This document shows, piece by piece, positions 2,671 through 45,319 of a stretch of 64,000 bases of DNA. How positions within the stretch are numbered: the stretch's first letter is position 1; every line of letters begins with the position of its first letter. The DNA comes from a virus, in UHGV virus genome UHGV-0072281; one strand, given 5' to 3'. The notes under the pieces were generated by a model, which ran no database searches, had not been told where the DNA came from, and saw nothing but the letters and a program-made list of their open reading frames with translations. The position numbers and the translations under genes were made by a program.

Positions 2671-3218
2671 TCGTCTTCTCCTTTAATTAAACCCAGCTCG
2701 ATCAGAAGATCAAAATCGATTTTACGAAACTTACTATCAAAATTTGAGTCCCAGTCAATATGTAGTCCTTGACGTTCGTCTTCTGTAAACTCGGGATAAA
2801 CTAAACTATGAAAAGTTTCCCTTTCATCGTAAAAACCATCGATGGTGGACTCTGGGTTTCGTGTGACATAAATTGTTACACCGGGAAACGATAAGCCTAG
2901 GGCGGCTACAGATTCAACACTCGGCTCTTGCAAAGCGCGTCGCAAAAGAACGATTTTATGTTTAGGGAATTCCAGCACGCGCTGTTCAAAACCTGGGTTT
3001 CGTTTCTCGATTTCAGCCACAGAAAGATCGGTAAGTTCTGTACAATACATCGGAATAACAACGGTAACTCCGTGACGAATTAATAATCGCTTAACATCGT
3101 CATTGAAATCTTCGCCGTTAATCTGTACATAACAGCCAAACAGTTTCGTAGTTTCTAAAAACTTTTCCAGAAAACGGAATTTACGCTTCGTAATATTGTG
3201 GATCAGAATTGGCTTCAT
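2646..3218 (-). CDS. hypothetical protein
   Basis: 190 aa ORF; start overlaps the 3' end of the SPASM-type radical SAM gene (operon coupling). Confidence 0.6.
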   Translation of the reverse strand: MKPILIHNITKRKFRFLEKFLETTKLFGCYVQINGEDFNDDVKRLLIRHGVTVVIPMYCTELTDLSVAEIEKRNPGFEQRVLEFPKHKIVLLRRALQEPSVESVAALGLSFPGVTIYVTRNPESTIDGFYDERETFHSLVYPEFTEDERQGLHIDWDSNFDSKFRKIDFDLLIELGLIKGEDECLLLTKA

Positions 3219-4503
3219 CTTTGGCTTCTCTCAATTGTTTTTCTTTCTGGGCGCGTTCACGTACACAGCGAGGACAGTAACACATGCTATTATCGTGAAA
3301 ATCCTTCACGGATGTTGTGCCCATTTTCTGCTTCCAATATTCCGCAACCATCAATTTTGCAGTTGTCCAACCACACTGACGACGTTCAGCGTGATATGCT
3401 TTACGGTCTTCTAACGTCCCTTCCCCATTCTCGTAGGAAGCTGCTGCACAGCTACCACAAGCGTGTTTCATTGGACAACCTAAGCACGTCTCAGGATAGT
3501 TGGTGTATTGCGTCTGAATCTCTTCCAGCAGTTTCCCACCGTCTAAACTAACGAATTCGCGACCGACTAACTCAAATACCGCAGAGCGTGACGTTACAGT
3601 CGACATGAAACGGTTACAACCGAAAATCTTCCTGTCAAACCCTAAACAAGTCATGTGCGTTAATGTCCCGCAGAACGGGCGCAAGCGTTCCGGGTTTAAA
3701 CGTACAGTATCGTTGTAAAGTAGCTGATCACGCCAGTTCGGTTCCCAGATAGTGTCGAAATCTAACCCTTCCGGGATGATATGCGAAAGGGTATTACGTG
3801 GGTTGGTGTGTAAACCCTTTTCAACCCAATAATCGACTACATCCATCATTTGTAGCGCTATCGACGTAGCCATACTCCGTGGCATAATGTCTTCGAAGGT
3901 TACGTTACCAGAAATGGTTCCACCTCCCGCCAAATCGATTAGGGATTTCATACCCGCCGCATAATGTGGGAGTGTCTCCAAAGTAAATGTCGCTTTAACC
4001 CCAAGCTCCGCGATACCTACTTCTTTTAGATAATTGTAACCACGTACAGCGGCCTCGTAGGAACCTTCGCGACTCGTTGTAAAAATACGGTACTTATCGT
4101 GCGACTCAGGTAACCCATCAATAGATACCCCGATAGAAAGTCTGTCCTTCCAACGTTCAATAATTTCCCTGTTCAACGGCCTATCTAATAATGTCCCATT
4201 AGTAGAGATACTAAACATAAACGGACGTTTATGTTCTTCACACAACTGCTCGGCTGTTTCGAAAGCAGTCATTAGAAGCTTAGGCTGCATAAACGGTTCA
4301 CCGCCGATAATGTCAATGATGACTTCTACGTTTGGTAAATCTTTATCGCGTTCAAAGCAGGCATGAAGAAAGTCTACAATATCCGCTGCTTTGTTATTGC
4401 GGGGATATTTACGCTCGTAACAATACTCACAGTCCAAATTACACGACAAGTTTGTAACAATCTGGTAAGTCAACTGTTTCGGGTAATTATTTTCTTGGTT
4501 CAT
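3181..4503 (-). CDS. radical SAM enzyme with SPASM-type C-terminal domain (peptide-modifying maturase family)
   Basis: N-terminal CNLDCEYC (CX3CX2C), GGEPFM SAM-binding motif, C-terminal CLGCPMKHACGSC (CX2CX5CX3C) plus further Cys. Confidence 0.8.
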   Translation of the reverse strand: MNQENNYPKQLTYQIVTNLSCNLDCEYCYERKYPRNNKAADIVDFLHACFERDKDLPNVEVIIDIIGGEPFMQPKLLMTAFETAEQLCEEHKRPFMFSISTNGTLLDRPLNREIIERWKDRLSIGVSIDGLPESHDKYRIFTTSREGSYEAAVRGYNYLKEVGIAELGVKATFTLETLPHYAAGMKSLIDLAGGGTISGNVTFEDIMPRSMATSIALQMMDVVDYWVEKGLHTNPRNTLSHIIPEGLDFDTIWEPNWRDQLLYNDTVRLNPERLRPFCGTLTHMTCLGFDRKIFGCNRFMSTVTSRSAVFELVGREFVSLDGGKLLEEIQTQYTNYPETCLGCPMKHACGSCAAASYENGEGTLEDRKAYHAERRQCGWTTAKLMVAEYWKQKMGTTSVKDFHDNSMCYCPRCVRERAQKEKQLREAKDEANSDPQYYEA

Positions 4504-5410
4504 TTAATACTCCACTATTACGGTTGGCCATAACCACTCGTCGAATATACTCGTAGGCTTCTAACCCGATGGAACAAGCTAATTGGTTACATCCCGATTC
4601 TAATAATCTCGGGGCATTTTGCAACTGATATTCGGTTCCATCTGCTCTTAACCATAAACTATTGCTGCATACGTTACACCCACCATCAAAAACTTTGCTT
4701 ACGACATAGTCACACCTTTTCGAGTTGGAAACATTCAGTCTTTCTATATTTTCCTGAATTCTAAAATACCCGTAAATAAAGTTCATAACGTGATCGGGAG
4801 ATAACGGTTTTGGCATATTTGCGTCTAACAGCAACGTCATGGTACGATAACCGTAGTGATAGATCGCATTATGAAGCTCAATAATGTCTTCATGCCACCG
4901 TTTGTTACCCAACTGTTCTCGAGTTAAAACGGCCCATGTATGAACATTTTCAAGCTCATGCATTACTTCTAAAGCTTCGTAGCAATCATCGCTAATAAAA
5001 CGCTTAAAAGGGCGTTCAGACAACTCAAACCCGTCGATGCTAACATATACGTTATCAAATTGTTTTAACAACGGTAGATGCGTTTTACGCATCTTTAAGC
5101 CATTGGTGTATAACTGATGTTTGAGTTCTGGGCGAACTGCTTTTAACTCGTCAACAAACGCCTCAATTTTACGAGTGGCTAACAAAGGCTCACCACCCGT
5201 CCATTGAATCTCGGTAATTGTTGGGTTAGCTTCTAACGCCTCCATAATTCGGTCACGTTGAAACTCTCGAGAAGAATCTTCACGATTCATGTAATAGGCT
5301 CCGCCGCAGAAACTACAGTCCAGATTACATTTGGATGTAGTAATAACGGCTAATATAGTTGGATTATCAAATAGCTGATCTGATAATTTTGGTTCCGCAT
5401 TGGTCGCCAT
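4487..5410 (-). CDS. radical SAM enzyme, paralog 2
   Basis: ITTSKCNLDCSFC (CX3CX2C), TGGEPLL motif, C-terminal Cys pairs; 17-nt overlap with downstream SPASM gene; paralog of 7018..7929. Confidence 0.75.
   Translation of the reverse strand: MATNAEPKLSDQLFDNPTILAVITTSKCNLDCSFCGGAYYMNREDSSREFQRDRIMEALEANPTITEIQWTGGEPLLATRKIEAFVDELKAVRPELKHQLYTNGLKMRKTHLPLLKQFDNVYVSIDGFELSERPFKRFISDDCYEALEVMHELENVHTWAVLTREQLGNKRWHEDIIELHNAIYHYGYRTMTLLLDANMPKPLSPDHVMNFIYGYFRIQENIERLNVSNSKRCDYVVSKVFDGGCNVCSNSLWLRADGTEYQLQNAPRLLESGCNQLACSIGLEAYEYIRRVVMANRNSGVLNEPRK
4733..4816. repeat. 84-bp segment identical to 7252..7335 (between radical SAM paralogs)
   Basis: Direct comparison: attcagtctttctatattttcctgaattctaaaatacccgtaaataaagttcataacgtgatcgggagataacggttttggcat at both sites; offset 2519 bp. 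Confidence 0.9.
5064..5110. repeat. 47-bp segment identical to 7583..7629
   Basis: tttaacaacggtagatgcgttttacgcatctttaagccattggtgta at both sites; same 2519-bp offset. Confidence 0.9.
5288..5347. repeat. 60-bp segment identical to 7807..7866
   Basis: catgtaataggctccgccgcagaaactacagtccagattacatttggatgtagtaataac at both sites (encodes the CX3CX2C region); same offset. Confidence 0.9.
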
Positions 5411-5432
5411 TGCAGGTGACTCCGTTAATTAT

Positions 5433-6320
5433 TTAATTATAGTCGATAGCGAACAATGGATCTTCGTCGAAATTGACTCCAGGTTTTAAAACCTTAGTCG
5501 AATTATACGCCTCTAGCAACCGATTAAGATCGTTATAACGACTATTCATTCTTTTGAGGTCTTCTAAGGTCACAATACGATCAAGCATCGGCTTAACGGC
5601 CTCGGCTTCTTCATCAGTCAATTCAACCTTAGACAACAAAAAACTAACAAGTTTAGAAATATCAGCCTCGGTTACTGGACTTTGGCCAAATCGTATTTGA
5701 ACAAGATGTTGCATCCATGGTTTACGAATACGCTTCGTAATAACATGCTCATCAGTAATGGCTTTCCAAACAGAACGTTCACGAATCCATTCGAACTTAT
5801 AGCTATAGGCCATTAAATCAGCTAAATGTGCAATCCCGAGGTCCTGATAACCTTCAATGTTGGTGTATGGTTCACTGTCGGAATACTCTTCAACATCCTT
5901 ACCAACAAGAGTATAGTAATACGGAAAAGCCCCCATGTAATCTGGACTCCACCATCTCCGAACCATAGGCTTAGCGTCAAGCTCAGCAAACGGTGTAAAA
6001 AAAAGTTCTAAATCGCTACCAGCATTTAGAACTCCGTCACTGAAGAAGTATTTACCATCAACAATCATTCCATAAAGTTCATCATCTCCTGTAAAAACTA
6101 TCACACGTTCGACCGGCAGATCACGAATTGTAAAAGTATTTTCTACAGAGATATTATCACGGTTGACGATATCACGACCCCGTAATTTCGGCCATTCGCC
6201 AGGTAGCATGGTAATTAAACGAACGTCGTCACTTAAATGATAACGTACAGAATCTGGAGAAGAGATTTGCAAAGGATGGTTAAATGTAGTGTTATATGCT
6301 AAATGTAAATCGTTTTTCAT
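5433..6320 (-). CDS. hypothetical protein inside the radical SAM cluster
   Basis: 295 aa ORF with AGAGGT SD; no recognisable motif. Confidence 0.6.
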   Translation of the reverse strand: MKNDLHLAYNTTFNHPLQISSPDSVRYHLSDDVRLITMLPGEWPKLRGRDIVNRDNISVENTFTIRDLPVERVIVFTGDDELYGMIVDGKYFFSDGVLNAGSDLELFFTPFAELDAKPMVRRWWSPDYMGAFPYYYTLVGKDVEEYSDSEPYTNIEGYQDLGIAHLADLMAYSYKFEWIRERSVWKAITDEHVITKRIRKPWMQHLVQIRFGQSPVTEADISKLVSFLLSKVELTDEEAEAVKPMLDRIVTLEDLKRMNSRYNDLNRLLEAYNSTKVLKPGVNFDEDPLFAIDYN

Positions 6321-24832: not shown

Positions 24833-25042
24833 TTAGTCTTTTTTGTAGACAATCGCGTTACCGTGCAGTTTGTTGTTACCGGAAATACCGATAACTTTAA
24901 ACGCTTCACCGCCGATCTTTTCAGCTTCGACAGCCAGCTTAGCAGTAACGTCGTCTACGGTATCACCGAAAGCGCTTACGTTACCAATTTTCTTGAACTC
25001 TTCAGGAATGTGTTCAGCAGAAGAGAATTCTTTAATAGCCAT
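24833..25042 (-). CDS. DUF1471 (BhsA/YhcN-family) domain protein
   Basis: 69 aa; C-terminal KVIGISGNNKLHGNAIVYKK matches the family signature (compare BhsA ...ITSVTGPNTLHGTAVIYK, from memory); GGAGAG SD; no signal peptide. Confidence 0.6.
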   Translation of the reverse strand: MAIKEFSSAEHIPEEFKKIGNVSAFGDTVDDVTAKLAVEAEKIGGEAFKVIGISGNNKLHGNAIVYKKD

Positions 25043-27938: not shown

Positions 27939-29090
27939 ATGCGAAATATTATTTCTAAACCAGGACATGTCAAGATCCTAAAAGAACTGATGGACAGATG
28001 CTATAATCGGACTTGGCCTCTGCCAAGCTTAACCATCGAGTCTTCATTACAACGCGAGTTGTTTGGTTATAACTTGGGCTGCTGCGTACTGAGTGAATAC
28101 GATGAGATTATCGCGCCTGTCGATGTCTGTACTTACGATGAAGAAATTGAAGGTTACCAGTTCGAGGTTTACACAAATTCTGGACTAAATTACCGTAAAC
28201 TCGTTGTTAGAGAAAAGAGTAGCGGCCGGAAGATTATGTTTAAGGTCTTCCCAAGCGGTAAAGTCAGTAGTTTATGTTTTCAGCTTGAGCAAGTGTCCTT
28301 TCACGGCGCAGCTATTTTAACTAAAGCAGAACGTGCGTTATTAAGCGGGTTAATCGGCTTTGAAGCAAAAACCATCAAAGTAGAACAGGAACTCACACGA
28401 AACGATTTCGGCTCGACCTGGTACGAAAGTTTCTTCCGCTACGAAATTTTAAGTGATAAAGCTATCAAACTCACTTACCGTTCTACCGACGATCTCGTTT
28501 ACCACATTTTAATTAGCGGCGAACCCCATCTGATTATTGAAGACAAAGGAGAAAATCAAATGTCTGGCTTAAGAGACGAATTAGCCCAATTCATTCGTGA
28601 CGTCGAAGAGAAAAGCAAGAGCGATCACATTTTCTCACAACGCTATCCTGAACTTATTGACGAAACCACCGATAGTGTCGTCGATGTTATACGCATTTTC
28701 CCAAGTGGTTTTGCAATCTACCGACTGCCTAGCGTTAATCAGCTTAAAGTCATGGAAATGCTAAAAGACGTTTTAGCAGAAGCGGGTTGGGAATATCGTT
28801 TCGATTGCAATTTCGAAGGGATGGCGTTATTCGTTACAAAGAAAAATTATACGTTGTCAATCGATCTGCCCAAAAGTCAATATTACAGTTTCTTCCCAAA
28901 AGCGTATGACCGCACTGAAAAAGAACCTGCGTTGTTACTCGATGCGGCAGAATCCAATACGCTAATGATGCGTCTGCGGATGGTTGACAAAAAGTTAAAT
29001 ACCGGCCATCTAACGACGATCGGTAAAGATTACGGTTGGAAATCTGTCGAACCGTACGGCAGTCAGCTGCTGTTTGTTGCTGACCTTTAA
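27939..29090 (+). CDS. hypothetical protein, paralog family B member 3
   Basis: 383 aa; CTAAAGGAG SD; C-terminal GWKSVEPYGSQLLFVADL. Confidence 0.65.
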   Translation: MRNIISKPGHVKILKELMDRCYNRTWPLPSLTIESSLQRELFGYNLGCCVLSEYDEIIAPVDVCTYDEEIEGYQFEVYTNSGLNYRKLVVREKSSGRKIMFKVFPSGKVSSLCFQLEQVSFHGAAILTKAERALLSGLIGFEAKTIKVEQELTRNDFGSTWYESFFRYEILSDKAIKLTYRSTDDLVYHILISGEPHLIIEDKGENQMSGLRDELAQFIRDVEEKSKSDHIFSQRYPELIDETTDSVVDVIRIFPSGFAIYRLPSVNQLKVMEMLKDVLAEAGWEYRFDCNFEGMALFVTKKNYTLSIDLPKSQYYSFFPKAYDRTEKEPALLLDAAESNTLMMRLRMVDKKLNTGHLTTIGKDYGWKSVEPYGSQLLFVADL

Positions 29091-29116
29091 TAAGTAAAAA
29101 TACACTTTCTCTAACT

Positions 29117-29142
29117 GCCGCGCTTTAGTCGCGGCTTTTGTT
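29117..29142 (+). terminator. intrinsic terminator
   Basis: gccgcg-ctttagt-cgcggc then ttttgtt. Confidence 0.6.
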
Positions 29143-29157
29143 AAGAAGGAAAAAGAA

Positions 29158-29931
29158 ATGAAAATCCATTTAGATCACCTCTTTAAATCTGAACCGTATA
29201 TGGTTAAAGGTTCGCTGGCTTCATTGTTGCTAGACGATAGATTTCATCGAACGCTGCAATTACAATCGGTCGAATCCGCGCCAACAGAAGACGTGGGTCT
29301 TTATCAACGTATCACTTATACACGTGGAGAATATCGGCGATATAAACCTGATACGCTAACCGTTAAGCTCTGGCAAGTGGCCACAGGCAAAGTATTAACT
29401 TATCGCGCTGTTGGTCTGTACTACGTTGAACGTGCCTACGCATGGTTAGAAGAAGTTAAAGAAATGGATTACGACCGTTTAAGCAAAAGACTACGCGATA
29501 ATAACGCCAGTTTACCGCTACGTAATTATTTCTCCACAATTGAAAATAGTCGTTGTTTCGTTTCACGCGAATCCATGATATTGCCTGGGGCTGATGTTCA
29601 GACGACACTAAAAGATGTGGTTGTGAGGAAAATCTTTCATGAATCTGAACACGTTGGATTTCGTATCTATTTAACGCACAAGAGGCCATTTACCGTGATT
29701 CATCTTGTTACCGTACCCGAAGGCTCGGCAGTCGTACGTGAACTTCCTGACGCACGTGACCGTAGCCCTAATGAGCCACTTTACTTAATGTCAGGAACAA
29801 AATCAGAATCTTTGATGTCCCGTTACAGCATGGTTGATGTTGTTGATACTGCTATGAAATTAGGTTGGAAAGAAGTACAGCAACACGGCAAACAATTGCT
29901 GTTTATCGCAGATGTAAATCTCAATAACTAA
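29158..29931 (+). CDS. hypothetical protein, paralog family B member 4
   Basis: 257 aa; AAGGAAA SD; C-terminal GWKEVQQHGKQLLFIADV. Confidence 0.65.
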   Translation: MKIHLDHLFKSEPYMVKGSLASLLLDDRFHRTLQLQSVESAPTEDVGLYQRITYTRGEYRRYKPDTLTVKLWQVATGKVLTYRAVGLYYVERAYAWLEEVKEMDYDRLSKRLRDNNASLPLRNYFSTIENSRCFVSRESMILPGADVQTTLKDVVVRKIFHESEHVGFRIYLTHKRPFTVIHLVTVPEGSAVVRELPDARDRSPNEPLYLMSGTKSESLMSRYSMVDVVDTAMKLGWKEVQQHGKQLLFIADVNLNN

Positions 29932-29943
29932 AGAGGTGGTACC

Positions 29944-30522
29944 GTGTACCGATTAATAGAAATGAGAAAAGACGTTTGGTTGGAAAACCTCGTCGATGGG
30001 GAGCTTGAGGGAATAGAGCTTTCCTTACCAGAGAGAGCGGACACGGTATTGGCCTTTCTGGTAAAACAGGCAGACCGTGAACCGGTAGGAATCTTCACTG
30101 TGGACTATAAAGACCCGCGAGGGATTCATTTACGGAACATTTGCAGTGGTTTGGAAAACTTACCGGCTAATCCGTTCTTAAACTACGCAAAACGTAAACT
30201 CCGACCGGGACAACACCTCTGGGTAACGTTAGCGCCTGACATTAGAATCATGCGTGACGATTACTCGGCGTTTGTACAGGCAACGAAAGTCAGTCTGTAT
30301 AACCCGAACGCAGAGCGTACCGATATGCCGTTTATAATTACCTTAGAAGACGATGGAACGCAAGAAGGTATTGAGGCAATTACGGAATTAGTAAACTCTT
30401 ATCCGGTTGCCACTATCGAGTTAGAAAACCCAGGTCGTTTACAACTGGGTGACCTGCTCGAATGGATTGAACTGAATACAGAATTCTTAATCAATTCTCG
30501 TCAGTATCGATTCGACGTTTAA
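29944..30522 (+). CDS. hypothetical protein
   Basis: 192 aa ORF with GTG start after AGAGGTGG SD; followed by a strong terminator. Confidence 0.55.
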   Translation: MYRLIEMRKDVWLENLVDGELEGIELSLPERADTVLAFLVKQADREPVGIFTVDYKDPRGIHLRNICSGLENLPANPFLNYAKRKLRPGQHLWVTLAPDIRIMRDDYSAFVQATKVSLYNPNAERTDMPFIITLEDDGTQEGIEAITELVNSYPVATIELENPGRLQLGDLLEWIELNTEFLINSRQYRFDV

Positions 30523-30526
30523 CAAC

Positions 30527-30557
30527 GGTGGGGTGTAAACCCCACCTTTTATTTTTT
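30527..30557 (+). terminator. intrinsic terminator
   Basis: ggtggggt-gtaaa-ccccacc then ttttatttttt. Confidence 0.7.
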
Positions 30558-30580
30558 GTTCTCTAACATTAAAAATAATC

Positions 30581-30604
30581 TCAGATATATATTACTTAGG
30601 TGAG
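30581..30604 (+). promoter_or_regulatory. recurring promoter-like motif, copy 2
   Basis: tcagatatatattacttaggtgag, ~50 nt upstream of the SD of the secreted-protein block, just after a terminator. Confidence 0.3.
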
Positions 30605-30651
30605 AGTTAAGATTAACTCTTTTACTTGTTAACCCCACGAGGAGAAAAACA

Positions 30652-31113
30652 ATGAAAATTTTCACTTCCTTTTTAATCGTTCTTTTCGCAATCGGATTCA
30701 ATACTGCACACGCTGCAATCAATAGTTGGGAACAACTACAGAACCCAGGTCAGGCTGTTTACGAAATTGAAGACACCGCCGGAAACGGACTGTCTATCAA
30801 CTGTGACACTGAAACTGCGAATCGCAAATTTTACGGTCGCATGGTTTGGTATTACGGGGAACCTGTAGGTGCAACTAACGCTGAAGACAACACGCTGGAT
30901 ATCGTCGTAAATGGCAAAACTTACAACATCCCTACCGTGGATGGTAGTGACAAAGCAGAACACGCTTGGGTGGCTTTCGTTAATGCTATCGGCAATGCCA
31001 AAACTTTCAGTGTGAATATCAACGGAAACGAAGCCGCTAACTTTACCGTAGAAGGTGAACGTCTGTCTGAAACTTTCTTCCAGAACTGTGGACACACCCG
31101 TCCTAACAAATAA
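30652..31113 (+). CDS. small secreted protein (signal peptide)
   Basis: GAGGAG SD; N-terminus MKIFTSFLIVLFAIGFNTAHA/A typical of a signal peptide. Confidence 0.65.
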   Translation: MKIFTSFLIVLFAIGFNTAHAAINSWEQLQNPGQAVYEIEDTAGNGLSINCDTETANRKFYGRMVWYYGEPVGATNAEDNTLDIVVNGKTYNIPTVDGSDKAEHAWVAFVNAIGNAKTFSVNINGNEAANFTVEGERLSETFFQNCGHTRPNK

Positions 31114-31141
31114 GTATTAATCTTTTTTAGAGTGCGTGAAA

Positions 31142-31528
31142 ATGAATATCAGAACTATACTTTATACCATCATTATTTTCTGTGCAGTCGGTATTACTGC
31201 CACTTATGCTTTCGGTGAATCGGATGTCCGCTATTACGAACCGGCTCCTGACTCACCGATTATCAACCCGGATGAGACGCCTACGTTAATGCGCAGTTTC
31301 GGTAAACTGCAAGTTTATCGTTTAGTGCGTGGTGAAACGTGTACGGGATTGCTCATTGCTGACACTCGTGCACAAGTCTACCAACGTCTGACGGATATCG
31401 CCTGCGAACAACCAAAAGTCATGTCGGTCAGTATTCATCCGTTAGAGGTCGGTAACTATACTGCTGTGGACTTCTTCCATAATGCAGAACTGATTGGTCG
31501 TATTACTTTAAATCGTAGCGCTGAATAA
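31142..31528 (+). CDS. small secreted protein (signal peptide)
   Basis: ATG 31142 (track shows GTG 31136); N-terminus MNIRTILYTIIIFCAVGITATYAFG. Confidence 0.6.
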   Translation: MNIRTILYTIIIFCAVGITATYAFGESDVRYYEPAPDSPIINPDETPTLMRSFGKLQVYRLVRGETCTGLLIADTRAQVYQRLTDIACEQPKVMSVSIHPLEVGNYTAVDFFHNAELIGRITLNRSAE

Positions 31529-31546
31529 TTTAATGGAGAATTTACA

Positions 31547-32029
31547 ATGAAACGTTTACATACCCTGATGCTCTTCGTGGCTATTCTGTTCACGGGCTTT
31601 AACTTTAACGCAGAAGCGGCTAGTGTAAAACAAGCACTTAGCTGTAACCCGGAAGCCTGGGCTGAACAACCTGGTGCGTGTCCTGATATCAATACGCTCT
31701 ATACCGACGACGCTACTTATAAAGCCGCAATCGATAAAGCGTTGAAACCTGTCGGACTAGACGGGTTATTCGGTAAAGATGGCGTGATGGATGGTCCTGG
31801 CGGCGATGTTTTCCCTGTACAAATCAACGGCAAAGTCTGGCTTGAGTCTACCTCTTGCAAAAGCAATGCTTGTGGTTGGGAATACATCACGACGCTTTAT
31901 AACCCGCAGACCCATGTCGTGGTAGGTTACTATTACAACGTCGACCCAGGTTACCTGGTTTGGTTTGGCGATATCGGCGTTAATGAATTCGCCTATCTGG
32001 TTAAGAAATACGTAGCTACGGTTAATTAA
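31547..32029 (+). CDS. small secreted protein (signal peptide)
   Basis: GGAG SD; N-terminus MKRLHTLMLFVAILFTGFNFNAEAA. Confidence 0.65.
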   Translation: MKRLHTLMLFVAILFTGFNFNAEAASVKQALSCNPEAWAEQPGACPDINTLYTDDATYKAAIDKALKPVGLDGLFGKDGVMDGPGGDVFPVQINGKVWLESTSCKSNACGWEYITTLYNPQTHVVVGYYYNVDPGYLVWFGDIGVNEFAYLVKKYVATVN

Positions 32030-32044
32030 TTTAAGGAGTCTGTC

Positions 32045-32455
32045 ATGAAAACGTTTATCAAAACTTTACTCGTTGCTGTAACTGTTCTGTTCTCTCTTAA
32101 CGTAGCAGCAAAAACAGTAAAACTACCGGCGGGTATCAAATACGTCAACAGTACCGATGAATTCTACTGCACAGAAATTGACGGTCTGTATTGCCAGACA
32201 AAGAATTTGTTTGAATACAAAGGTAACAGATATGTTTTCGTTGTTGAGCAAGGCGGTGCCTGGTGCTACGACAGCCCTATGTCGGTACTCAACCTGGAAA
32301 CTGGGAAAGCACAGAAAATTGAATACAAAGACAACCAATTGTGTTCAGGCGAAAACAAACCGTTCTTCAAAATCAAAAATGGTGTCCCGACTGTAGGTAT
32401 TATCGACACTTCTGGAGCACCAATCGTTGTAGCTCAGGACAAACTTAAAATCTAA
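32045..32455 (+). CDS. small secreted protein (signal peptide)
   Basis: AAGGAG SD; N-terminus MKTFIKTLLVAVTVLFSLNVAA. Confidence 0.65.
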   Translation: MKTFIKTLLVAVTVLFSLNVAAKTVKLPAGIKYVNSTDEFYCTEIDGLYCQTKNLFEYKGNRYVFVVEQGGAWCYDSPMSVLNLETGKAQKIEYKDNQLCSGENKPFFKIKNGVPTVGIIDTSGAPIVVAQDKLKI

Positions 32456-32465
32456 GGAGTAAACC

Positions 32466-32855
32466 ATGCGTCTTATCTGCGCTTTGTTGGCGTTTTTCTC
32501 AATCGGAGTTATGGCTTCTACACACATCGACGATTTATTACTTACCCCGGCAACGAACACAGACTATCACTACAACCCACCGGGTTTTGAAGTCTGCGAA
32601 GGCGATGCAGGCGAATGCCAAGAAGTTGGCGCAGATGGACGCTATATACTCGTAAAAGCAGACGGAGGAACAACCTGCCCTGCGGGTTATTATTTCGTAC
32701 TTGACTCTGTAGCAAAAGAGGTACTTCCTGTAACGACCAAAACGTGTGACCCCACGGTTGTATTAACCCTTGCGAAAAGCAAATCACGTGACCGTCATCT
32801 TATCGTCATCGAAGAACGCGGTGAGATGTTAGGCGCTATCGAATTAGATTACTGA
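32466..32855 (+). CDS. small secreted protein (signal peptide)
   Basis: AAGGAG SD; N-terminus MRLICALLAFFSIGVMAS; followed by terminator. Confidence 0.65.
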   Translation: MRLICALLAFFSIGVMASTHIDDLLLTPATNTDYHYNPPGFEVCEGDAGECQEVGADGRYILVKADGGTTCPAGYYFVLDSVAKEVLPVTTKTCDPTVVLTLAKSKSRDRHLIVIEERGEMLGAIELDY

Positions 32856-32866
32856 TGTGTAGTCTT

Positions 32867-32904
32867 GACCCCGGTTCGTGCCGATTCGTCCGGGGTCCTT
32901 TTTA
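32867..32904 (+). terminator. intrinsic terminator
   Basis: gaccccgg-(15-nt loop)-ccggggtc then ctttttacg. Confidence 0.65.
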
Positions 32905-32933
32905 CGACTTGTTTTACCTAAAGGAGAATTAAA

Positions 32934-33410
32934 ATGCGTTTGTCTAATGTTTATCAAGCAGCCCAATTCCATCATGAACTGACGGCTAAGCCTGAGTATA
33001 TTCGCCACAACTTAACGGTGGCTTGGAAACTGTTATTGATTGCTGATGCTGCACGACACAACGACCAGGAAACCATTATCAAAACCGTGCGTACTTTACG
33101 CCCTATTGACCTGGAAACAATTTGGTCGTTTGACTTAACTCGAATTTATCATCGTCGCTTTAATGCGGCGGTGGATGCGATACGTCCTTATTTCCACTAT
33201 TTGCAAGCAACATCAGACTGTGGTCCATCCTTAGAGTGGGTCTTGGTACAAAGCGTATGGAGCGATTACATTTATCTCCTATCTTTAGAGACGGGTGAAT
33301 GCATTATCGCTAACGAGGTATTCTCAACCAACGCCGAAATGTATCGTTCCCACGCTACTATCCAGGGTGTCTCACAGCCTATCTTATCACTCACGCACTT
33401 AGGGCTGTGA
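32934..33410 (+). CDS. hypothetical protein
   Basis: 158 aa; CTAAAGGAG SD; flanked by terminators. Confidence 0.6.
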   Translation: MRLSNVYQAAQFHHELTAKPEYIRHNLTVAWKLLLIADAARHNDQETIIKTVRTLRPIDLETIWSFDLTRIYHRRFNAAVDAIRPYFHYLQATSDCGPSLEWVLVQSVWSDYIYLLSLETGECIIANEVFSTNAEMYRSHATIQGVSQPILSLTHLGL

Positions 33411-33418
33411 TTAGCCCG

Positions 33419-33446
33419 GCCCCGCTGTGTACGGGGCTTCTTTTTT
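33419..33446 (+). terminator. intrinsic terminator
   Basis: gccccg-ctgtgta-cggggc then ttcttttttg. Confidence 0.65.
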
Positions 33447-33464
33447 GCCAAAGGAAACTGAAAC

Positions 33465-34073
33465 ATGAACGAAATTACTTTGGTTCGTTTTATCGAAGCG
33501 ATGCGACTAAACGAAGCTAATCCTCACTCTCCGTTATTCATCGATTTAATGGAGGAAGAAGTCGAAGGGTTCTTAGCGTACCCGCGTTTGAAAGCGTATT
33601 TCGAACGTAAAACACCAACCGCTTACGAGAAGTTGATGTACGCGTTAGACAACCGTACTACGCTGAACACCACACCGTTTAAAGCGCTGGAAGCAATAGA
33701 CCCTACCGGGGGTGCAGGTATCCCACAACGTGTTGTGTTCTACTACATCGACAACGGCCGTATTAAAGCCGACGTTGTAAACTGGATCTCCGAAGGGGAA
33801 ATCCCAGAAACGCGTACTTTTAACCTCTGTCCGGTAGAAGAAGGTTGGGTCGCAGGAACGCATTATTCCTATCCGTATCAAAGCATCAAATCACCTTATC
33901 TGTATCCGGTGTATTTAGATGACGTTACGCCAGGAAAATGTATTCCCGTTACCAATCTGATTTGCTTACTGACGATGGAAGTTGTTGCGTCAGACGCAGG
34001 CCAGGCTTGGGTTGAGCAATCGAAAAATATCCAAAACTGGCAGCAGATGGGTTACAAACTCTACCAGCCGTAA
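33465..34073 (+). CDS. hypothetical protein
   Basis: 202 aa; AAGGAAA SD; followed by terminator. Confidence 0.6.
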   Translation: MNEITLVRFIEAMRLNEANPHSPLFIDLMEEEVEGFLAYPRLKAYFERKTPTAYEKLMYALDNRTTLNTTPFKALEAIDPTGGAGIPQRVVFYYIDNGRIKADVVNWISEGEIPETRTFNLCPVEEGWVAGTHYSYPYQSIKSPYLYPVYLDDVTPGKCIPVTNLICLLTMEVVASDAGQAWVEQSKNIQNWQQMGYKLYQP

Positions 34074-34080
34074 TACCACG

Positions 34081-34128
34081 AGAGAACCTTCGGGTTCTCT
34101 CCCTTCTCTTTTATTTTTTTTTCTTTTT
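34081..34128 (+). terminator. intrinsic terminator
   Basis: gagagaacc-ttcg-ggttctctc then T-rich run. Confidence 0.65.
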
Positions 34129-34158
34129 ACACCACGCTCCGTGAATATGGAGGTGGAC

Positions 34159-36663
34159 ATGTTAAAAGTTGAACGTATTGTACTTAAAGGATTTACCGGA
34201 ATGGGGTTACACGAAATCGAAACCTTCGATTTTACTATCCATTCCCCGACCACCATTATCCTCGGTGGTAACGGCTGCGGTAAGACCAGTTTACTGTCCG
34301 TGTTTCTACCTATCGCACCTTCGAAATCCGAATTCCGTGACGGGGGTTCTTACACCAACATCTGTTTGGTTAACGACCATCGTTACAAGTTTAAGGTTGC
34401 GCGTAAAGGCAACTCACTGGTTTGCGATATCGAGAACCTGACGACGGGTACCAAAATCGTCGAACAAGGTAATGCGAAAGTGTATAACTCTCGTGTAGAA
34501 GAAATCACGGGTATTACAAAAGAGATTAAAGAGTTACTGAACGGAGAAGTGCTTTTAACGGATGCAGGAACGGAACTGCGTCGTAAGTGGTTCTACCGTT
34601 TAAGTACGTCAGACTTAACTTACGCGTTAGGTTTTTATCAACGTTTACGAAAAAACCTGACGATGTTAAACGGCGGTGTTGAAATCACCAGCCGCAAGAT
34701 TGCAGAGTTGCGCACTCGCGTGATTGATAACGAGGAAGAACGTCAGCAGTTAGCAACACGGTTAAAAGCATTAGAAGTAGATTTACGTGAACTCAACAAA
34801 CAGATTGAACAACTGCCGGGTCTGAATCGTGACGTTACGGCGGCAACGATTCAATCGCTATTGCTTAAAATCGAAGCACCGATTAATGCTATCTTGGAAC
34901 ACCGTGGCGGATTACCTACGGAAGAACAGGTAGAGGAAGCACGACGCGTTGAAGCCACTGCCCGTGAAGCGGTGGTCTCTGCTGAAACAGAACTGTCCAT
35001 GCTAAACAAAGATTTGTCTTTGTTGATGGACGAGTCTACCCGCCAAGATTACCTGATGCGGAATCACGAGGGGTTAAAGAACACGGTTGCAAAACTGCGT
35101 GAGTTATTAAAGCAGTGGGACACCGAACATCTTTTCCCTGAACTGTTTGCGGAGACCGTTAATATCGACCAGCTTAAAGCAGCGACAGATGCGCGTGTCT
35201 GGGGACAACGTTTAGGAACAACGCTGGATGCTATTAAATCAACGGAACGGTTGAACGTACTGGAAGAGAAACTGTTGACCTTAGACCAAAACTCATCTGG
35301 GTTGCGTGACCGACTACAACGCGTTGAAAACGTATTGCAGAACCTCAACCACGAACGGAATCACTATTTGGAAACCGCCGAGGTTGATTGTCCGCAGTGT
35401 CAATTTAAATTCCGTCCGGGTGTGCGTCGTTCTTTGCCTGAATTGGAAGAAGCCATTCGTGGACAAATGGAGCAACGTAATACGTTACAGACTCAGCTTG
35501 ATTCCGTATTGCGAGACCGTACGGAATTAGAGTCGGACGTTAACTACATGCGTCAAGTACGAGAAATCGTTTTAACGTACTCGAAAGACCCGGTATTGAG
35601 TTTGTTCTTTAAACGTCTCCAGGAGCGGAATGTCTTTACGGATAACCGCAGTCAATTCGGCAGTCTGTGCGCGGAGTTTGATCATGAACTTTATTCCGCA
35701 ATTGAATACCACGAAACGAAACACCGTTTTGCTAAAGCGGAAAAAGAGTGGGCAAACGCAGTTGCAGCGGTAGGTAACGTTGATGGCGCTCTACAGCAGA
35801 AAATTGCCTTCCAGCAGGAGCGTTTGGGTAAGGCGACAGAAACGCTCTCAGAGCGCCGTAGAGAGCACGCAGTTGCTAATGATACCTTTTGTTATCTAAA
35901 CGAACTTAAAGCCACTGTAGACAATTTTAATGCGGTTTTTGAGCGTTTAGAGAACGATGTTAAGGTAACATTAACCAACACAGTGGTCGAAACGTTATTA
36001 AACGCCCGAGAAAACAAGTTGGATGCGTTCACCACAGCACGGGAACGGTACCGTCAGATGGAAAACGAACTCAACCAACTTACTGCGTTAGAAAAGGAGT
36101 TATCGGATTTACAAGCGCAGCAATTCAATAACAAACTGATGATTCAAGCGTTCTCGCCCGAGAAAGGGGTATTACGCAAATACTTCTACAACGCTATCGT
36201 GAGAATCACAGAATTAATGACGCGGTATATCGAACAAGTCTGGACCTACCCTATGCGGGTCATGCCGTGTGACTTAACCGACGGTGACTTAGACTACACG
36301 TTCCCAGTGCAGTTAAAAACCCATCCTGAACCGGTACCTGACGTGCGGAAAGGGTCGAAAGCGCAGCGGGCCATCTTTAATTTGATGTTTCGTTTAACCG
36401 CTTACAAAGCCCTGAAACTTCATCAGTATCCGCTACTGTTGGATGAACCGTCAGAAGGGATGGATGAGGAACACCGAAATAACCTCGTCGGGTTTATTAA
36501 AACCCTGGCGAATTCCGGTGAGTTCTCTCAGTTACTGGTGGTATCTCACGAAGCAGAAATTCATTCAAAACTTAACGAAGCCGCATACTGTGTTATTGAA
36601 CCTGAAGGTATAACACTGCCTGCGGTATACAACGAGGGAGTAAAAATTGTCTACGCAAACTGA
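34159..36663 (+). CDS. Rad50/SbcC-like SMC-family ATPase
   Basis: ORF 33982..36663; start moved to ATG 34159 after GGAGGTGG (ATG 34147 also possible); Walker A GGNGCGKTS, long coiled-coil middle, CPQC zinc-hook-like motif, C-terminal LLLDEP and VVSHE. Confidence 0.7.
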   Translation: MLKVERIVLKGFTGMGLHEIETFDFTIHSPTTIILGGNGCGKTSLLSVFLPIAPSKSEFRDGGSYTNICLVNDHRYKFKVARKGNSLVCDIENLTTGTKIVEQGNAKVYNSRVEEITGITKEIKELLNGEVLLTDAGTELRRKWFYRLSTSDLTYALGFYQRLRKNLTMLNGGVEITSRKIAELRTRVIDNEEERQQLATRLKALEVDLRELNKQIEQLPGLNRDVTAATIQSLLLKIEAPINAILEHRGGLPTEEQVEEARRVEATAREAVVSAETELSMLNKDLSLLMDESTRQDYLMRNHEGLKNTVAKLRELLKQWDTEHLFPELFAETVNIDQLKAATDARVWGQRLGTTLDAIKSTERLNVLEEKLLTLDQNSSGLRDRLQRVENVLQNLNHERNHYLETAEVDCPQCQFKFRPGVRRSLPELEEAIRGQMEQRNTLQTQLDSVLRDRTELESDVNYMRQVREIVLTYSKDPVLSLFFKRLQERNVFTDNRSQFGSLCAEFDHELYSAIEYHETKHRFAKAEKEWANAVAAVGNVDGALQQKIAFQQERLGKATETLSERRREHAVANDTFCYLNELKATVDNFNAVFERLENDVKVTLTNTVVETLLNARENKLDAFTTARERYRQMENELNQLTALEKELSDLQAQQFNNKLMIQAFSPEKGVLRKYFYNAIVRITELMTRYIEQVWTYPMRVMPCDLTDGDLDYTFPVQLKTHPEPVPDVRKGSKAQRAIFNLMFRLTAYKALKLHQYPLLLDEPSEGMDEEHRNNLVGFIKTLANSGEFSQLLVVSHEAEIHSKLNEAAYCVIEPEGITLPAVYNEGVKIVYAN

Positions 36664-38866: not shown

Positions 38867-38951
38867 CACACAACAAAGGAGTACCAGCTGTCCGCGCCGT
38901 GATTTCGTTCTACGGAATACGGAAATGTATAAATCCAACTGGAGAACTAGT

Positions 38952-39638
38952 ATGTTTCGTATCTTCTTTCTTTTACTGGTAACACTTTTCGCGTTTAACG
39001 CATACGCATCCAAATCCGCGCCCAGTACCAAACACCATCGTGAATTCGAAATGATTCAAGACCGTTTCGAACGGGTAAAACCGTTGATTGTGGAAATCTC
39101 TCGAAAGCAGGGTGTTGATCCTAATTTGATGACCACGCTAATCTATCGAGAGTCACGGTTTAATCCGAAAGCGTATAATCGAACGTCTAAAGCGCACAGT
39201 CTGGTTCAGATGCTGCCGAGCACAAAGCGTAATTTGCTAAAACTCTACGGTGCCGAAATCGGACTTAGCCGCAATGCAGATTTGTACAATCCTCGTAATG
39301 CGGTGCTATTGGCTTCCGTCTACGTTAAACATTTAGAAAAGGGGTTAACTAAACGACTCAAACGCAAGCCCACTATTGCAGAAATAGCATTGGCTTATCA
39401 CTGGGGTGAAAGCGGTGCACACGCCAGGATTAAAAGCAAGTCTCGGGCAGCACAACGAGAAATGGCGAGCTTTATGAAAGATGCAACGTTCTACAGTGCA
39501 AAAATCAACAAGCCTGTAGCATCTCGTCAGCTTGCGTTTGCGAAGAAACCAGAACGCCAGATTCAGTTAGCAGAAGTTAACCGAATTTGGGATACGATAA
39601 ACACCAGTTTTCCATTTAAACAAGGAGTCACCCTTTGA
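38952..39638 (+). CDS. lytic transglycosylase (SLT-like domain) with signal peptide
   Basis: ORF 38925..39638; start moved to ATG 38952 after GGAGAA; MFRIFFLLLVTLFAFNAYAS signal-like; YRESRFNPKAYNRTSKAHSLVQMLPST resembles SLT catalytic region. Confidence 0.6.
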   Translation: MFRIFFLLLVTLFAFNAYASKSAPSTKHHREFEMIQDRFERVKPLIVEISRKQGVDPNLMTTLIYRESRFNPKAYNRTSKAHSLVQMLPSTKRNLLKLYGAEIGLSRNADLYNPRNAVLLASVYVKHLEKGLTKRLKRKPTIAEIALAYHWGESGAHARIKSKSRAAQREMASFMKDATFYSAKINKPVASRQLAFAKKPERQIQLAEVNRIWDTINTSFPFKQGVTL

Positions 39639-44863: not shown

Positions 44864-45319
44864 ATGAAATCGCTGTTATTCATCATGATTTTGTGCGTGG
44901 GTTTGGTGAGTAATAGCTATGGAGAACCCGGTAAACGGTCATCCTATACTGCGTTACAGCCTCCGCCAGCGCCACCTATCATGTTAAATTGGAAAATTGA
45001 TAAAGACGCGATGCGGGAATATGTTGCGGATGTGAATACATACGCTTATTACGTTTATCTCTACACACGAAACTTAAATCAGCAAGCAGTCAAACGCGGG
45101 TGGAATCCACCGATGTTAGCACCTATCTGCGAACGGTTTGAAATTCCTAAATTACATTCCGTTCCAGAAAAGATGCTATTAGACGAGAAAGCGTTAACGC
45201 CACAAGAAATCAGTCGGGATTTATCACGTAAACTGAATTCGTTGTTGTGGAATTATCGCTCTGACCGGCAAGCTTTATTAGACGCCTACGATCAGTATCT
45301 GACAACGTGTTTGAACTGA
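44864..45319 (+). CDS. secreted proline-rich protein
   Basis: 151 aa; AAGGAG SD; MKSLLFIMILCVGLVSNSYG signal-like then QPPPAPP; followed by terminator. Confidence 0.6.
   Translation: MKSLLFIMILCVGLVSNSYGEPGKRSSYTALQPPPAPPIMLNWKIDKDAMREYVADVNTYAYYVYLYTRNLNQQAVKRGWNPPMLAPICERFEIPKLHSVPEKMLLDEKALTPQEISRDLSRKLNSLLWNYRSDRQALLDAYDQYLTTCLN

What the first reader, a model, noticed from the sequence alone, without database searches (positions are those of the whole stretch)
30652..32855. Five consecutive small proteins, each with its own signal peptide
Five back-to-back ORFs (129 to 160 aa) each start with a hydrophobic signal-like segment, have their own SD, and sit between a terminator-plus-motif (30527..30604) and a terminator (32867..32904). 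None has a canonical lipobox. A phage exporting five small proteins to the periplasm suggests envelope-directed functions such as superinfection exclusion, receptor masking or blocking of envelope-associated defences.
Basis: partly seen in the sequence, partly recalled or inferred. Interest (0 to 1): 0.55.

Follow-up and report, generated by a model that had tools for sequence, protein, structure and literature searches.

The report
Exported-protein operon with Ivy-like inhibitor
A giant E. coli phage carries one operon of five small proteins apparently sent to the space around the cell wall; one is a divergent relative of the bacterial lysozyme inhibitor Ivy and is shared with genomic islands in about 43% of E. 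coli genomes, which suggests, without proof, control of cell-wall-cutting enzymes.

The parts
30527..30546 (+). Intrinsic terminator of the upstream operon (8-bp GC-rich stem, then a T-run to about 30557)
   Evidence: Terminator scan; RNA fold dG -17 kcal/mol, z -2.9.
30568..30626 (+). Promoter-like element: AT-rich core AGATATATATTAC (30583-30595), then TTAGGTGAGAG and a short hairpin (about 30597-30624). Probably the operon's promoter, and possibly of the early, virion-RNA-polymerase class.
   Evidence: It is the only stretch with DNA-level similarity to other jumbo phages (87-95%). The same element lies directly upstream of the orthologous clusters of SPN3US and pEa_SNUABM_29. About 8 strong and 5 weaker copies occur on the coding strand of the complete relative genome. 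It fits the published description of jumbo-phage early promoters (PMC7598289). The temporal class is an inference.
30652..31113 (+). p1: 153-aa exported protein of unknown function, 2 Cys; a lineage-specific addition
   Evidence: SP MKIFTSFLIVLFAIGFNTAHA|A. Homologs occur only in contigs up to about 225 kb, five of them IMG/VR contigs of 107-225 kb of this lineage. No tblastn hit in 50,697 phage records. phrog_3429, E 4e-7, unknown function. Homologs carry a precomputed PF27224 label that is absent from the local Pfam copy. dN/dS 0.09.
31142..31528 (+). p2: 128-aa exported protein (130 aa if GTG 31136 is used), 2 conserved Cys; a core gene of the SPN3US-like clade
   Evidence: phrog_9424, E 9e-42. 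31-53% identical orthologs at the same position in Seoulvirus, Erskinevirus, Machinavirus and Wellingtonvirus. Weak profile link to the p5 family (hhalign E 4e-4; phrog_5248 E 6e-4). dN/dS 0.10.
31547..32029 (+). p3: 160-aa exported, divergent Ivy-superfamily protein with 4 conserved Cys
31856..31873 (+). p3 disulfide loop C104-K-S-N-A-C109, homologous to Ivy's inhibitory CKPHDC loop
   Evidence: The Cys columns are nearly invariant in the family alignment and align on CKPHDC of 1gpq/1xs0. Alleles are CKSNAC, CKANAC and CKAHAC. The loop is essential for Ivy inhibition by mutagenesis (PMC4262234).
32045..32455 (+). p4: 136-aa exported protein, 4 conserved Cys; core gene, paralog of p5
   Evidence: phrog_8968, E 8e-39. 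Orthologs in all related phages examined. hhalign to p5 93% and to the SPN3US gp181 type 98.6%. 76% identical copy in an E. coli island. dN/dS 0.19-0.23.
32466..32855 (+). p5: 129-aa exported all-beta protein, 4 invariant Cys and an invariant CPAGY motif; core gene
32867..32904 (+). Intrinsic terminator that closes the operon (8-bp stem GACCCCGG/CCGGGGTC, large loop, then CTTTTT)
   Evidence: RNA fold dG -20.6 kcal/mol, z -2.6. Similar hairpins plus T-tracts follow the clusters of SPN3US, Asesino, Huxley and Wellington. The simple scan missed it because of the 15-nt loop.

Best explanation
The five ORFs form one transcription unit (promoter-like element, p1 to p5, terminator) of a ~222-kb E. 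coli jumbo phage of the SPN3US-like clade. Each product carries a cleavable Sec-type signal peptide and paired cysteines, so they are most likely soluble, disulfide-bonded periplasmic proteins. The unit is a mosaic. p2, p4 and p5 are the clade-wide core; p4 and p5 are paralogs of a clade-restricted all-beta family, and p2 is probably a distant member. p1 and p3 were added in the E. coli lineage. p3 is a divergent Ivy-superfamily protein. Characterised Ivy proteins plug the active site of lysozymes, and inhibit lytic transglycosylases, with a short disulfide-closed loop. p3 keeps that loop at the homologous position but has Asn where nearly all its Ivy-family relatives have His. Proposed mechanism: after infection the phage fills the periplasm with small binding proteins that neutralise peptidoglycan-cleaving enzymes, p3 by loop insertion. 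The most likely targets are the tail-borne muralytic enzymes of later-arriving phages, which would give superinfection exclusion as T4 Spackle does. Retention of p3 alone in E. coli islands fits a benefit to the cell that does not need the rest of the phage. Shown: ORFs, operon layout, signal-peptide features, family structure, Ivy homology and fold, exchange with islands, purifying selection. Inferred: actual export, early timing, inhibitor activity, and the target.
Against: p3 alone is below the curated cut-offs (Pfam 14.3 vs 21 bits; NCBIfam 17.4 vs 180), so the assignment rests on intermediates and on a moderate model (pLDDT 70). The window's loop lacks the His that nearly all Ivy-family relatives keep (consensus CExHNC), so it may bind something else or nothing. 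E. coli Ivy is only a weak transglycosylase inhibitor in vitro and gives no protection in vivo (PMC10139938). Four of the five proteins have no functional lead. No trained signal-peptide predictor was run. The promoter's temporal class is inferred from a general description. No expression or phenotype data were found for the SPN3US orthologs gp180-183. Nothing here separates exclusion of other phages from control of the phage's own enzymes.
Confidence: 0.5

Rival explanations
1. Self-control rather than exclusion. p3, and perhaps its neighbours, restrains the phage's own Sec-exported SLT transglycosylase (window 38925-39638) or host lytic transglycosylases, so that the wall stays intact through the infection cycle until programmed lysis.
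For: An SLT-domain protein (PF01464, E 3e-14) with an N-terminal export segment lies 6 kb downstream. Ivy proteins are reported to control autolytic transglycosylases (PMC3660660). The only other phage-borne Ivy homolog found, in phage PHB10, sits about 0.5 kb downstream of that phage's endolysin cassette.
Against: E. coli islands keep p3 without any phage SLT partner, in 43% of genomes. SPN3US-like relatives have the core cluster but no p3. E. coli Ivy inhibits transglycosylases only weakly (PMC10139938). p3 is not adjacent to the SLT gene.
Confidence: 0.22
2. Host-benefit cargo. p3 protects the infected or island-carrying cell against external muramidases, such as animal lysozymes in the gut or peptidoglycan-glycosidase effectors injected by neighbouring bacteria, acting as an extra Ivy or an orphan immunity protein.
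For: This is the classical role assigned to Ivy (PMC2267010). p3 is widespread in chromosomal islands of E. coli, including isolates from humans and animals. The loop residues vary between alleles. Known periplasmic inhibitors include Tgi2, cited as an immunity protein of a type VI glycoside-hydrolase effector (PMC7650644).
Against: It does not explain the four other exported proteins or their conservation in phages of Erwinia and Salmonella. A lytic phage gains little from protecting a cell it will soon lyse. No effector gene was seen next to p3 in the islands examined.
Confidence: 0.13
3. The exported proteins act on other envelope targets than wall hydrolases, for example masking a receptor, altering outer-membrane proteins, or blocking an envelope-associated defence. 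In that case p3's Ivy fold is only a scaffold reused for a different ligand.
For: The loop histidine is missing from p3. p1, p2, p4 and p5 match no inhibitor family. Within the phage lineage p3 (63%) and p1 (74.5%) are the two most diverged of the eight genes compared; p4 (77%) is no more diverged than one flank (77-89%), and p2 is the most conserved (95%).
Against: There is no positive evidence for any particular target. The only family assignment obtained points to wall-hydrolase inhibition.
Confidence: 0.1
4. The cluster is part of the lysis machinery (spanins, antiholin or holin accessory proteins), or the hydrophobic N-termini are uncleaved membrane anchors rather than signal peptides.
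For: Lysis proteins are small and often carry N-terminal hydrophobic segments; whether T4 antiholin RI has a cleavable signal peptide was long debated (PMC8385771, listed).
Against: There is no lipobox and no second membrane segment. The hydrophobic cores are 12-15 residues, followed by recurring AxA sites. The likely lysis cassette lies elsewhere in the near-identical genome: a GH108 protein at 35123-35713 and a lipobox protein at 33248-33727. The cluster follows an AT-rich promoter-like element of the kind described for early promoters.
Confidence: 0.05

Closest known systems
Ivy (inhibitor of vertebrate lysozyme; Pfam PF08816; E. coli Ivy 1gpq/1xs0, P. aeruginosa Ivy 1uuz)
   Different: p3 alone is below the Pfam and NCBIfam cut-offs. 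Its loop is CKSNAC rather than CKPHDC, so there is no His; island alleles read CKAHAC or CKANAC. It has an extra N-terminal Cys pair. It is encoded by a lytic jumbo phage and by mobile islands. Its activity is untested.
T4 Spackle (gp61.3)
   Same: Spackle is a small phage protein with a cleaved signal peptide that acts in the periplasm by inhibiting a peptidoglycan-cleaving enzyme, the gp5 tail lysozyme, and so excludes superinfecting phages (PMC7650644, PMC7677548). This is the closest model for how p3 may work.
MliC/PliC, PliG and PliI periplasmic lysozyme inhibitors
   Same: They are small, exported, beta-rich proteins that use a conserved protruding loop to block lysozymes. p4 and p5 are also small exported beta proteins, and p5 has an invariant CPAGY motif.
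SPN3US gp180-gp183 and their orthologs in Erskinevirus, Machinavirus and Wellingtonvirus
   Same: These are true orthologs of p2, p4 and p5, at the same genomic position upstream of two conserved genes and an SMC-like gene. All have signal-peptide-like N-termini, and the same promoter-like element lies upstream in SPN3US.
   Different: All are annotated as hypothetical, and no paper on them was found. They lack p1 and p3. Seoulvirus and Erskinevirus carry a 161-165-aa paralog (the SPN3US gp181 type) where the window has p3.
Ivy homolog of Escherichia phage PHB10 (QBJ00744.1)
   Same: It is a phage-encoded Ivy-family protein with a signal peptide and a CKPHSC loop. It was the only hit among 50,697 phage records.
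   Different: It is close to canonical Ivy (47% identity to the E. coli core) and keeps the His. It lies in a 57-kb phage next to the endolysin genes, is not in an exported-protein operon, and is uncharacterised.

Membership tests
Ivy superfamily (p3) | Direct match to the family model above the curated threshold | tested here: not met
   Pfam PF08816 14.3 bits against a cut-off of 21 (E 0.048). NCBIfam NF007443 17.4 bits against a cut-off of 180 (E 0.0031).
Ivy superfamily (p3) | Homology shown through intermediate sequences and profiles | tested here: met
   The p3-family profile finds 57 proteins. 25 of 28 full-length remote relatives match PF08816, best E 7.6e-12. The joint profile hits only 1gpq, 1xs0, 1uuz and 4ps6 in the whole PDB, E 4.8e-12 to 5.8e-9.
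Ivy superfamily (p3) | Ivy fold | tested here: met
Ivy superfamily (p3) | Six-residue disulfide-closed loop at the inhibitory position | tested here: met
   C104 and C109 are nearly invariant in the family and align with the two Cys of CKPHDC.
Ivy superfamily (p3) | Loop sequence CKPHDC (or the related CExxDxC), including the central His | tested here: not met
   The window has CKSNAC; other alleles are CKANAC and CKAHAC. Remote relatives mostly read C-E/K-x-H-N/D-C. The motif definition comes from PMC4262234.
Ivy superfamily (p3) | Inhibition of lysozyme or lytic transglycosylase | not testable with these tools
   This needs purified protein and enzyme assays.
Sec-dependent cleavable signal peptide (all five) | Positively charged n-region, hydrophobic core of about 10-15 residues, small residues at -3/-1, and no lipobox | tested here: met
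   Explicit heuristic and inspection, and recurrence across orthologs. No trained predictor was available.
Sec-dependent cleavable signal peptide (all five) | Actual translocation and cleavage | not testable with these tools
   This needs PhoA or Bla fusions, fractionation and N-terminal sequencing.
T4 Spackle-type superinfection exclusion | Sequence or structural relationship to gp61.3 | tested here: not met
T4 Spackle-type superinfection exclusion | Expression early in infection | tested here: inconclusive
   An AT-rich conserved promoter-like element heads the operon and recurs about 8-13 times in the genome. It fits the general description of virion-RNA-polymerase early promoters (PMC7598289). 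No transcript data were available.
T4 Spackle-type superinfection exclusion | Inhibits a tail-associated muralytic enzyme and blocks secondary infection | not testable with these tools
   This needs enzyme assays and challenge experiments.
MliC/PliC, PliG and PliI inhibitors (p4, p5) | SxSGAxY loop motif on the family's beta fold | tested here: not met
Spanin or lysis cassette | Lipobox lipoprotein and/or membrane-anchored partner next to the endolysin | tested here: not met
   There is no lipobox. In the near-identical genome the GH108 protein and a lipobox protein lie elsewhere, at 33-36 kb of that record.

The most novel reading that the evidence does not exclude
p3 and its widespread E. 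coli island homologs block phage entry by inhibiting virion-borne peptidoglycan hydrolases. That would make defence against phages, or between phages, a physiological role of the Ivy superfamily. The clade-specific p2/p4/p5 beta-fold proteins would then be a new family of periplasmic inhibitors aimed at other muralytic enzymes, so the operon would be a multi-target periplasmic shield that E. coli has partly domesticated.
Probability: 0.18. Interest if true: 0.8.

Novelty: new variant of a known kind. Interest (0 to 1): 0.58.

Why it matters
Why Gram-negative bacteria keep lysozyme inhibitors in the periplasm, a compartment that animal lysozymes rarely reach, is an acknowledged paradox (PMC10139938). 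Here a divergent Ivy-type gene sits in an exported-protein operon of a lytic jumbo phage. It has also moved into CP4-type islands now found in about 43% of complete E. coli genomes, where it is kept under purifying selection while its phage neighbour decays. That offers a concrete, testable alternative: these proteins may work in conflicts that involve phage muralytic enzymes. It also marks a conserved, wholly uncharacterised periplasmic module in the SPN3US-like jumbo phages. The comparative survey of jumbo phages I checked (PMC7824862) does not mention exported or periplasmic proteins at all.

Tried and rejected
- Direct family searches of all five proteins: Pfam, NCBIfam and PADLOC gave nothing significant; PHROGs gave only unknown-function families.
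- Profile searches of the p1, p2, p4 and p5 families against all PDB sequences gave no meaningful hit.
- AFDB search: the library was unavailable.
- The idea that p5's CPAGY motif is the lysozyme-inhibitor motif was rejected: the published motif is SxSGAxY on a different fold.
- The idea that all five are paralogs was rejected: p3 and p1 are unrelated to the others and to each other.
- Spanin or lysis role: rejected (no lipobox; the lysis genes lie elsewhere).
- The upstream element is not a known RNA: no Rfam match reached a gathering score. It is also not the published giant-phage sRNA, which lies upstream of a tail gene.
- Literature on SPN3US gp180-183: none found. Weintraub 2019, Abergel 2007 and Clarke 2010 are not held.
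- The DUF1471 gene near the cluster (window 24833-25042, minus strand) has no signal-like N-terminus, so it is not a further member.
- The search for related loci with the broad Ivy alignment failed for lack of a conserved stretch.
- p1, p2 and p4 were not modelled, because only two structure jobs were allowed.
Full report
**What is there.**
- p1: 30652-31113, 153 aa.
- p2: 31136-31528, 130 aa from GTG. It more probably starts at ATG 31142 (128 aa), because the SPN3US ortholog aligns from residue 3 and the 387-nt CDS annotated in a near-identical replicon has that length.
- p3: 31547-32029, 160 aa.
- p4: 32045-32455, 136 aa.
- p5: 32466-32855, 129 aa.

A GC-rich hairpin with a T-run (30527-30546; dG -17, z -2.9) ends the upstream operon. 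A second hairpin (32867-32897 plus CTTTTT; dG -20.6, z -2.6) closes the cluster. Four of the five genes have strong Shine-Dalgarno sequences; p2's is weak.

**Signal peptides.**
- Every N-terminus has a K/R n-region, a 12-15-residue hydrophobic core and an AxA-type site: AHA|A, TYA|F, AEA|A, VAA|K, VMA|S.
- None has a lipobox. The mature parts hold 2, 2, 4, 4 and 4 cysteines, as expected for disulfide-bonded periplasmic proteins.
- One explicit heuristic applied to all ORFs passes 7 of 70 likely genes, and five of them are this run. Permutation gives P = 1.1e-4 for a run of five or more.
- In a complete genome 95.6% identical to the window over the 5.5 kb compared, about 12 of 238 genes pass, including obvious false positives such as the DnaB helicase.
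- Orthologs from nine other phages differ in signal-peptide sequence but keep the architecture and the small -3/-1 residues. The flanking genes lack such N-termini.
- No trained predictor was available, so export remains a strong inference and not a result.

**Whose genome this is.**
- The only DNA-level similarity to deposited phages is a ~55-nt intergenic element. Protein-level synteny places the window in the SPN3US-like jumbo phages: Seoulvirus, Erskinevirus, Machinavirus and Wellingtonvirus.
- A 221,873-bp circular 'plasmid' of an E. coli urine isolate (NZ_CP173450.1) is 95.6% identical across window 29000-34500 and is evidently the same phage.
- IMG/VR holds five contigs of this lineage, 107-225 kb long. 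One of them encodes p1 and p3 at 100% identity.

**The operon is a mosaic.**
- p2, p4 and p5 have orthologs at the same position in the related phages examined (p5's gene is not annotated in STsAS). They always lie upstream of two conserved genes and an SMC-like gene. In SPN3US they are gp180, gp182 and gp183.
- With signal peptides removed, hhalign links p4 to p5 (93%), p4 to the SPN3US gp181 type (98.6%) and p5 to that type (95%). p2 is at best a distant member (E 4e-4; also phrog_5248, E 6e-4).
- The p5 family has 36 members. All the named ones are jumbo-phage proteins, apart from one Salmonella enterica record.
- p1 and p3 have no tblastn hit in 50,697 phage records. They occur only in the E. 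coli lineage, whose divergent member L029 carries the same five genes.
- Against L029, p3 (63% amino-acid identity) and p1 (74.5%) have diverged most. p4 (77%) and p5 (82%) fall within the range of the flanking genes (77-89%), and p2 is the most conserved (95%).
- All five genes are nevertheless under purifying selection, with dN/dS 0.02-0.23.

**p3 is an Ivy-superfamily protein.** Independent lines agree.
- Two libraries give weak, sub-threshold Ivy hits: Pfam E 0.048 and NCBIfam E 0.0031.
- An exhaustive profile search found 57 relatives. 25 of the 28 full-length remote ones are recognised Pfam Ivy proteins.
- A profile of p3 plus these relatives hits only the four Ivy entries in the whole PDB (E 5e-12 to 6e-9), and the family's Cys-x4-Cys loop lies exactly on Ivy's CKPHDC.
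- That loop is essential for lysozyme inhibition (PMC4262234).
- Ivy is also reported to control lytic transglycosylases (PMC3660660) and to act on goose egg-white lysozyme (PMC2267010). E. coli Ivy, however, is only a weak transglycosylase inhibitor (PMC10139938).
- In the window the loop reads CKSNAC. Other alleles read CKANAC or CKAHAC. The phage copy therefore lacks the histidine that nearly all relatives keep, which is the main caveat.

**Exchange with E. coli.**
- p3 is present in 2333 of 5426 complete E. coli genomes, mostly at 60-80% nucleotide identity and in 16 records at 95-99%.
- It lies in CP4-type islands, between dynamin-like GTPase, YjcZ/RdcB and patatin genes on one side and DUF932, antirestriction, RadC, DUF987 and CbeA/CbtA genes on the other.
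- One island carries p3 plus p4 at 88.6% identity over 949 bp.
- The commoner island variant has, directly upstream of an intact p3, a p2 remnant that is broken across three reading frames.
- p2 and p4 belong to jumbo-phage core families, so the segment most likely moved from phage to island. Only p3 was then kept, with dN/dS 0.18.

**Regulation.**
- The conserved element upstream of p1 (tCAGATATATATTAC, then TTAGGTGAGAG, then a hairpin) also lies directly upstream of the SPN3US and pEa_SNUABM_29 clusters.
- It recurs about 8 times strongly and 5 times weakly in the complete genome, always on the coding strand.
- It fits the description of jumbo-phage early promoters: a ~10-nt AT-rich conserved motif near -10, read by the virion RNA polymerase (PMC7598289). 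Early expression is therefore plausible but unproven.

**How it most likely works.**
- The best-supported picture is an operon that loads the periplasm with small disulfide-bonded binding proteins.
- For p3 the family mechanism is insertion of the Cys-closed loop into the cleft of a peptidoglycan glycosidase.
- Known precedent makes superinfection exclusion the leading purpose. T4 Spackle is a signal-peptide-bearing periplasmic protein that inhibits the tail lysozyme gp5 (PMC7650644 and PMC7677548).
- The phage also encodes its own exported SLT transglycosylase (window 38925-39638; PF01464, E 3e-14). The near-identical genome additionally has a 2377-aa SLT protein and a GH108 protein. Control of the phage's own enzymes is therefore a serious rival.
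- The one other phage-borne Ivy homolog found, in phage PHB10, sits beside an endolysin cassette.
- Retention of p3 alone in host islands argues for a benefit that does not depend on the phage's own enzymes.
- For p1, p2, p4 and p5 only localisation can be proposed.

**Comparison with what is known, and novelty.**
- p3 works like, and is a divergent member of, the Ivy superfamily, but it fails the curated thresholds and the canonical loop sequence.
- It may work like Spackle but is unrelated to it.
- p4 and p5 are not MliC/PliC, PliG or PliI proteins: the SxSGAxY motif is absent and the fold differs.
- No literature was found on the SPN3US orthologs. A broad jumbo-phage survey mentions neither Ivy nor exported proteins.
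- I rate this a new variant of a known kind. It is a histidine-less Ivy-type protein inside a conserved exported-protein operon of a lytic jumbo phage, and part of it has been taken up by E. coli islands.

**Verdict.** The interest is moderate to good, and the function needs experiments.

Noticed in passing
window 30568-30626; L004 5897-5945 (SPN3US, upstream of gp180); L001 5001-5055 (SPN3US, upstream of gp135): A promoter-like element (tCAGATATATATTAC, then TAGGTGAGAG, then a hairpin) is 87-95% conserved between genera that otherwise share no DNA similarity. It recurs about 8-13 times per genome on the coding strand. Upstream of SPN3US gp180 it is followed at once by a terminator-like hairpin, which could give a very short transcript before the first gene.
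   Followed up: partly
NZ_CP173450.1 (L017, L020-L024): A record deposited as a 221,873-bp circular plasmid of an E. coli urine isolate is in fact a complete jumbo-phage genome, 95.6% identical to the window over the 5.5 kb compared. This suggests a carrier state, pseudolysogeny or co-sequenced phage. In that record p3 is flagged as a pseudogene 'missing N-terminus', although the ORF is intact and has its own SD and signal peptide.
   Followed up: partly
window 38925-39638 (+): A 237-aa SLT-domain lytic transglycosylase (PF01464, E 3e-14) has a strongly hydrophobic N-terminal export segment (MYKSNWRTSMFRIFFLLLVTLFAFNAYA|S). It is a Sec-exported muralytic enzyme 6 kb downstream of the cluster, and a candidate partner or target of p3.
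   Followed up: partly
window 44864-45319 (+): Another 151-aa ORF passes the signal-peptide test (MKSLLFIMILCVGLVS|N...) and has 2 mature Cys. It has no Pfam match and no known function.
   Followed up: no
L013 7098-7640; L018 6806-7483: The E. coli islands carry a further 180-aa protein with a signal peptide just upstream of the p2 remnant and p3. In strain VE-T9 its N-terminal part is fused in frame to p3, giving a 225-aa annotated protein. That longer form may be why the intact phage copy of p3 is flagged as a pseudogene.
   Followed up: partly
L041 2369-2782 (Escherichia phage PHB10, MK524177.1): This is the only Ivy homolog found in 50,697 deposited phage genomes: 137 aa, with a signal peptide and a CKPHSC loop. 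It is annotated as hypothetical and lies about 0.5 kb downstream of the endolysin cassette.
   Followed up: partly
window 24833-25042 (-): A 69-aa ORF lies at the position that my coordinate mapping gives for the DUF1471 protein annotated in the near-identical replicon; SPN3US has one too. It has no signal-like N-terminus (MAIKEFSSAEH...). I did not run a domain search on it.
   Followed up: partly
L011 5181-5588 (Erwinia phage Wellington gp202): Wellington has an extra, sequence-unique exported protein (135 aa, 4 Cys) inside its cluster. A 135-aa protein of the related phage Kwan matches the p5 model in BFVD (E 2.6e-4). The slot therefore seems to collect diverged members of one beta-fold family. 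The identity of the BFVD hits was judged from length and organism only.
   Followed up: partly
window about 4040-6160 (-), mapped from NZ_CP173450.1 28603-30724: Two adjacent radical SAM proteins are annotated in the near-identical replicon at the region that corresponds to window ORFs 3181-4503 and 4487-5410. I did not examine them.
   Followed up: no
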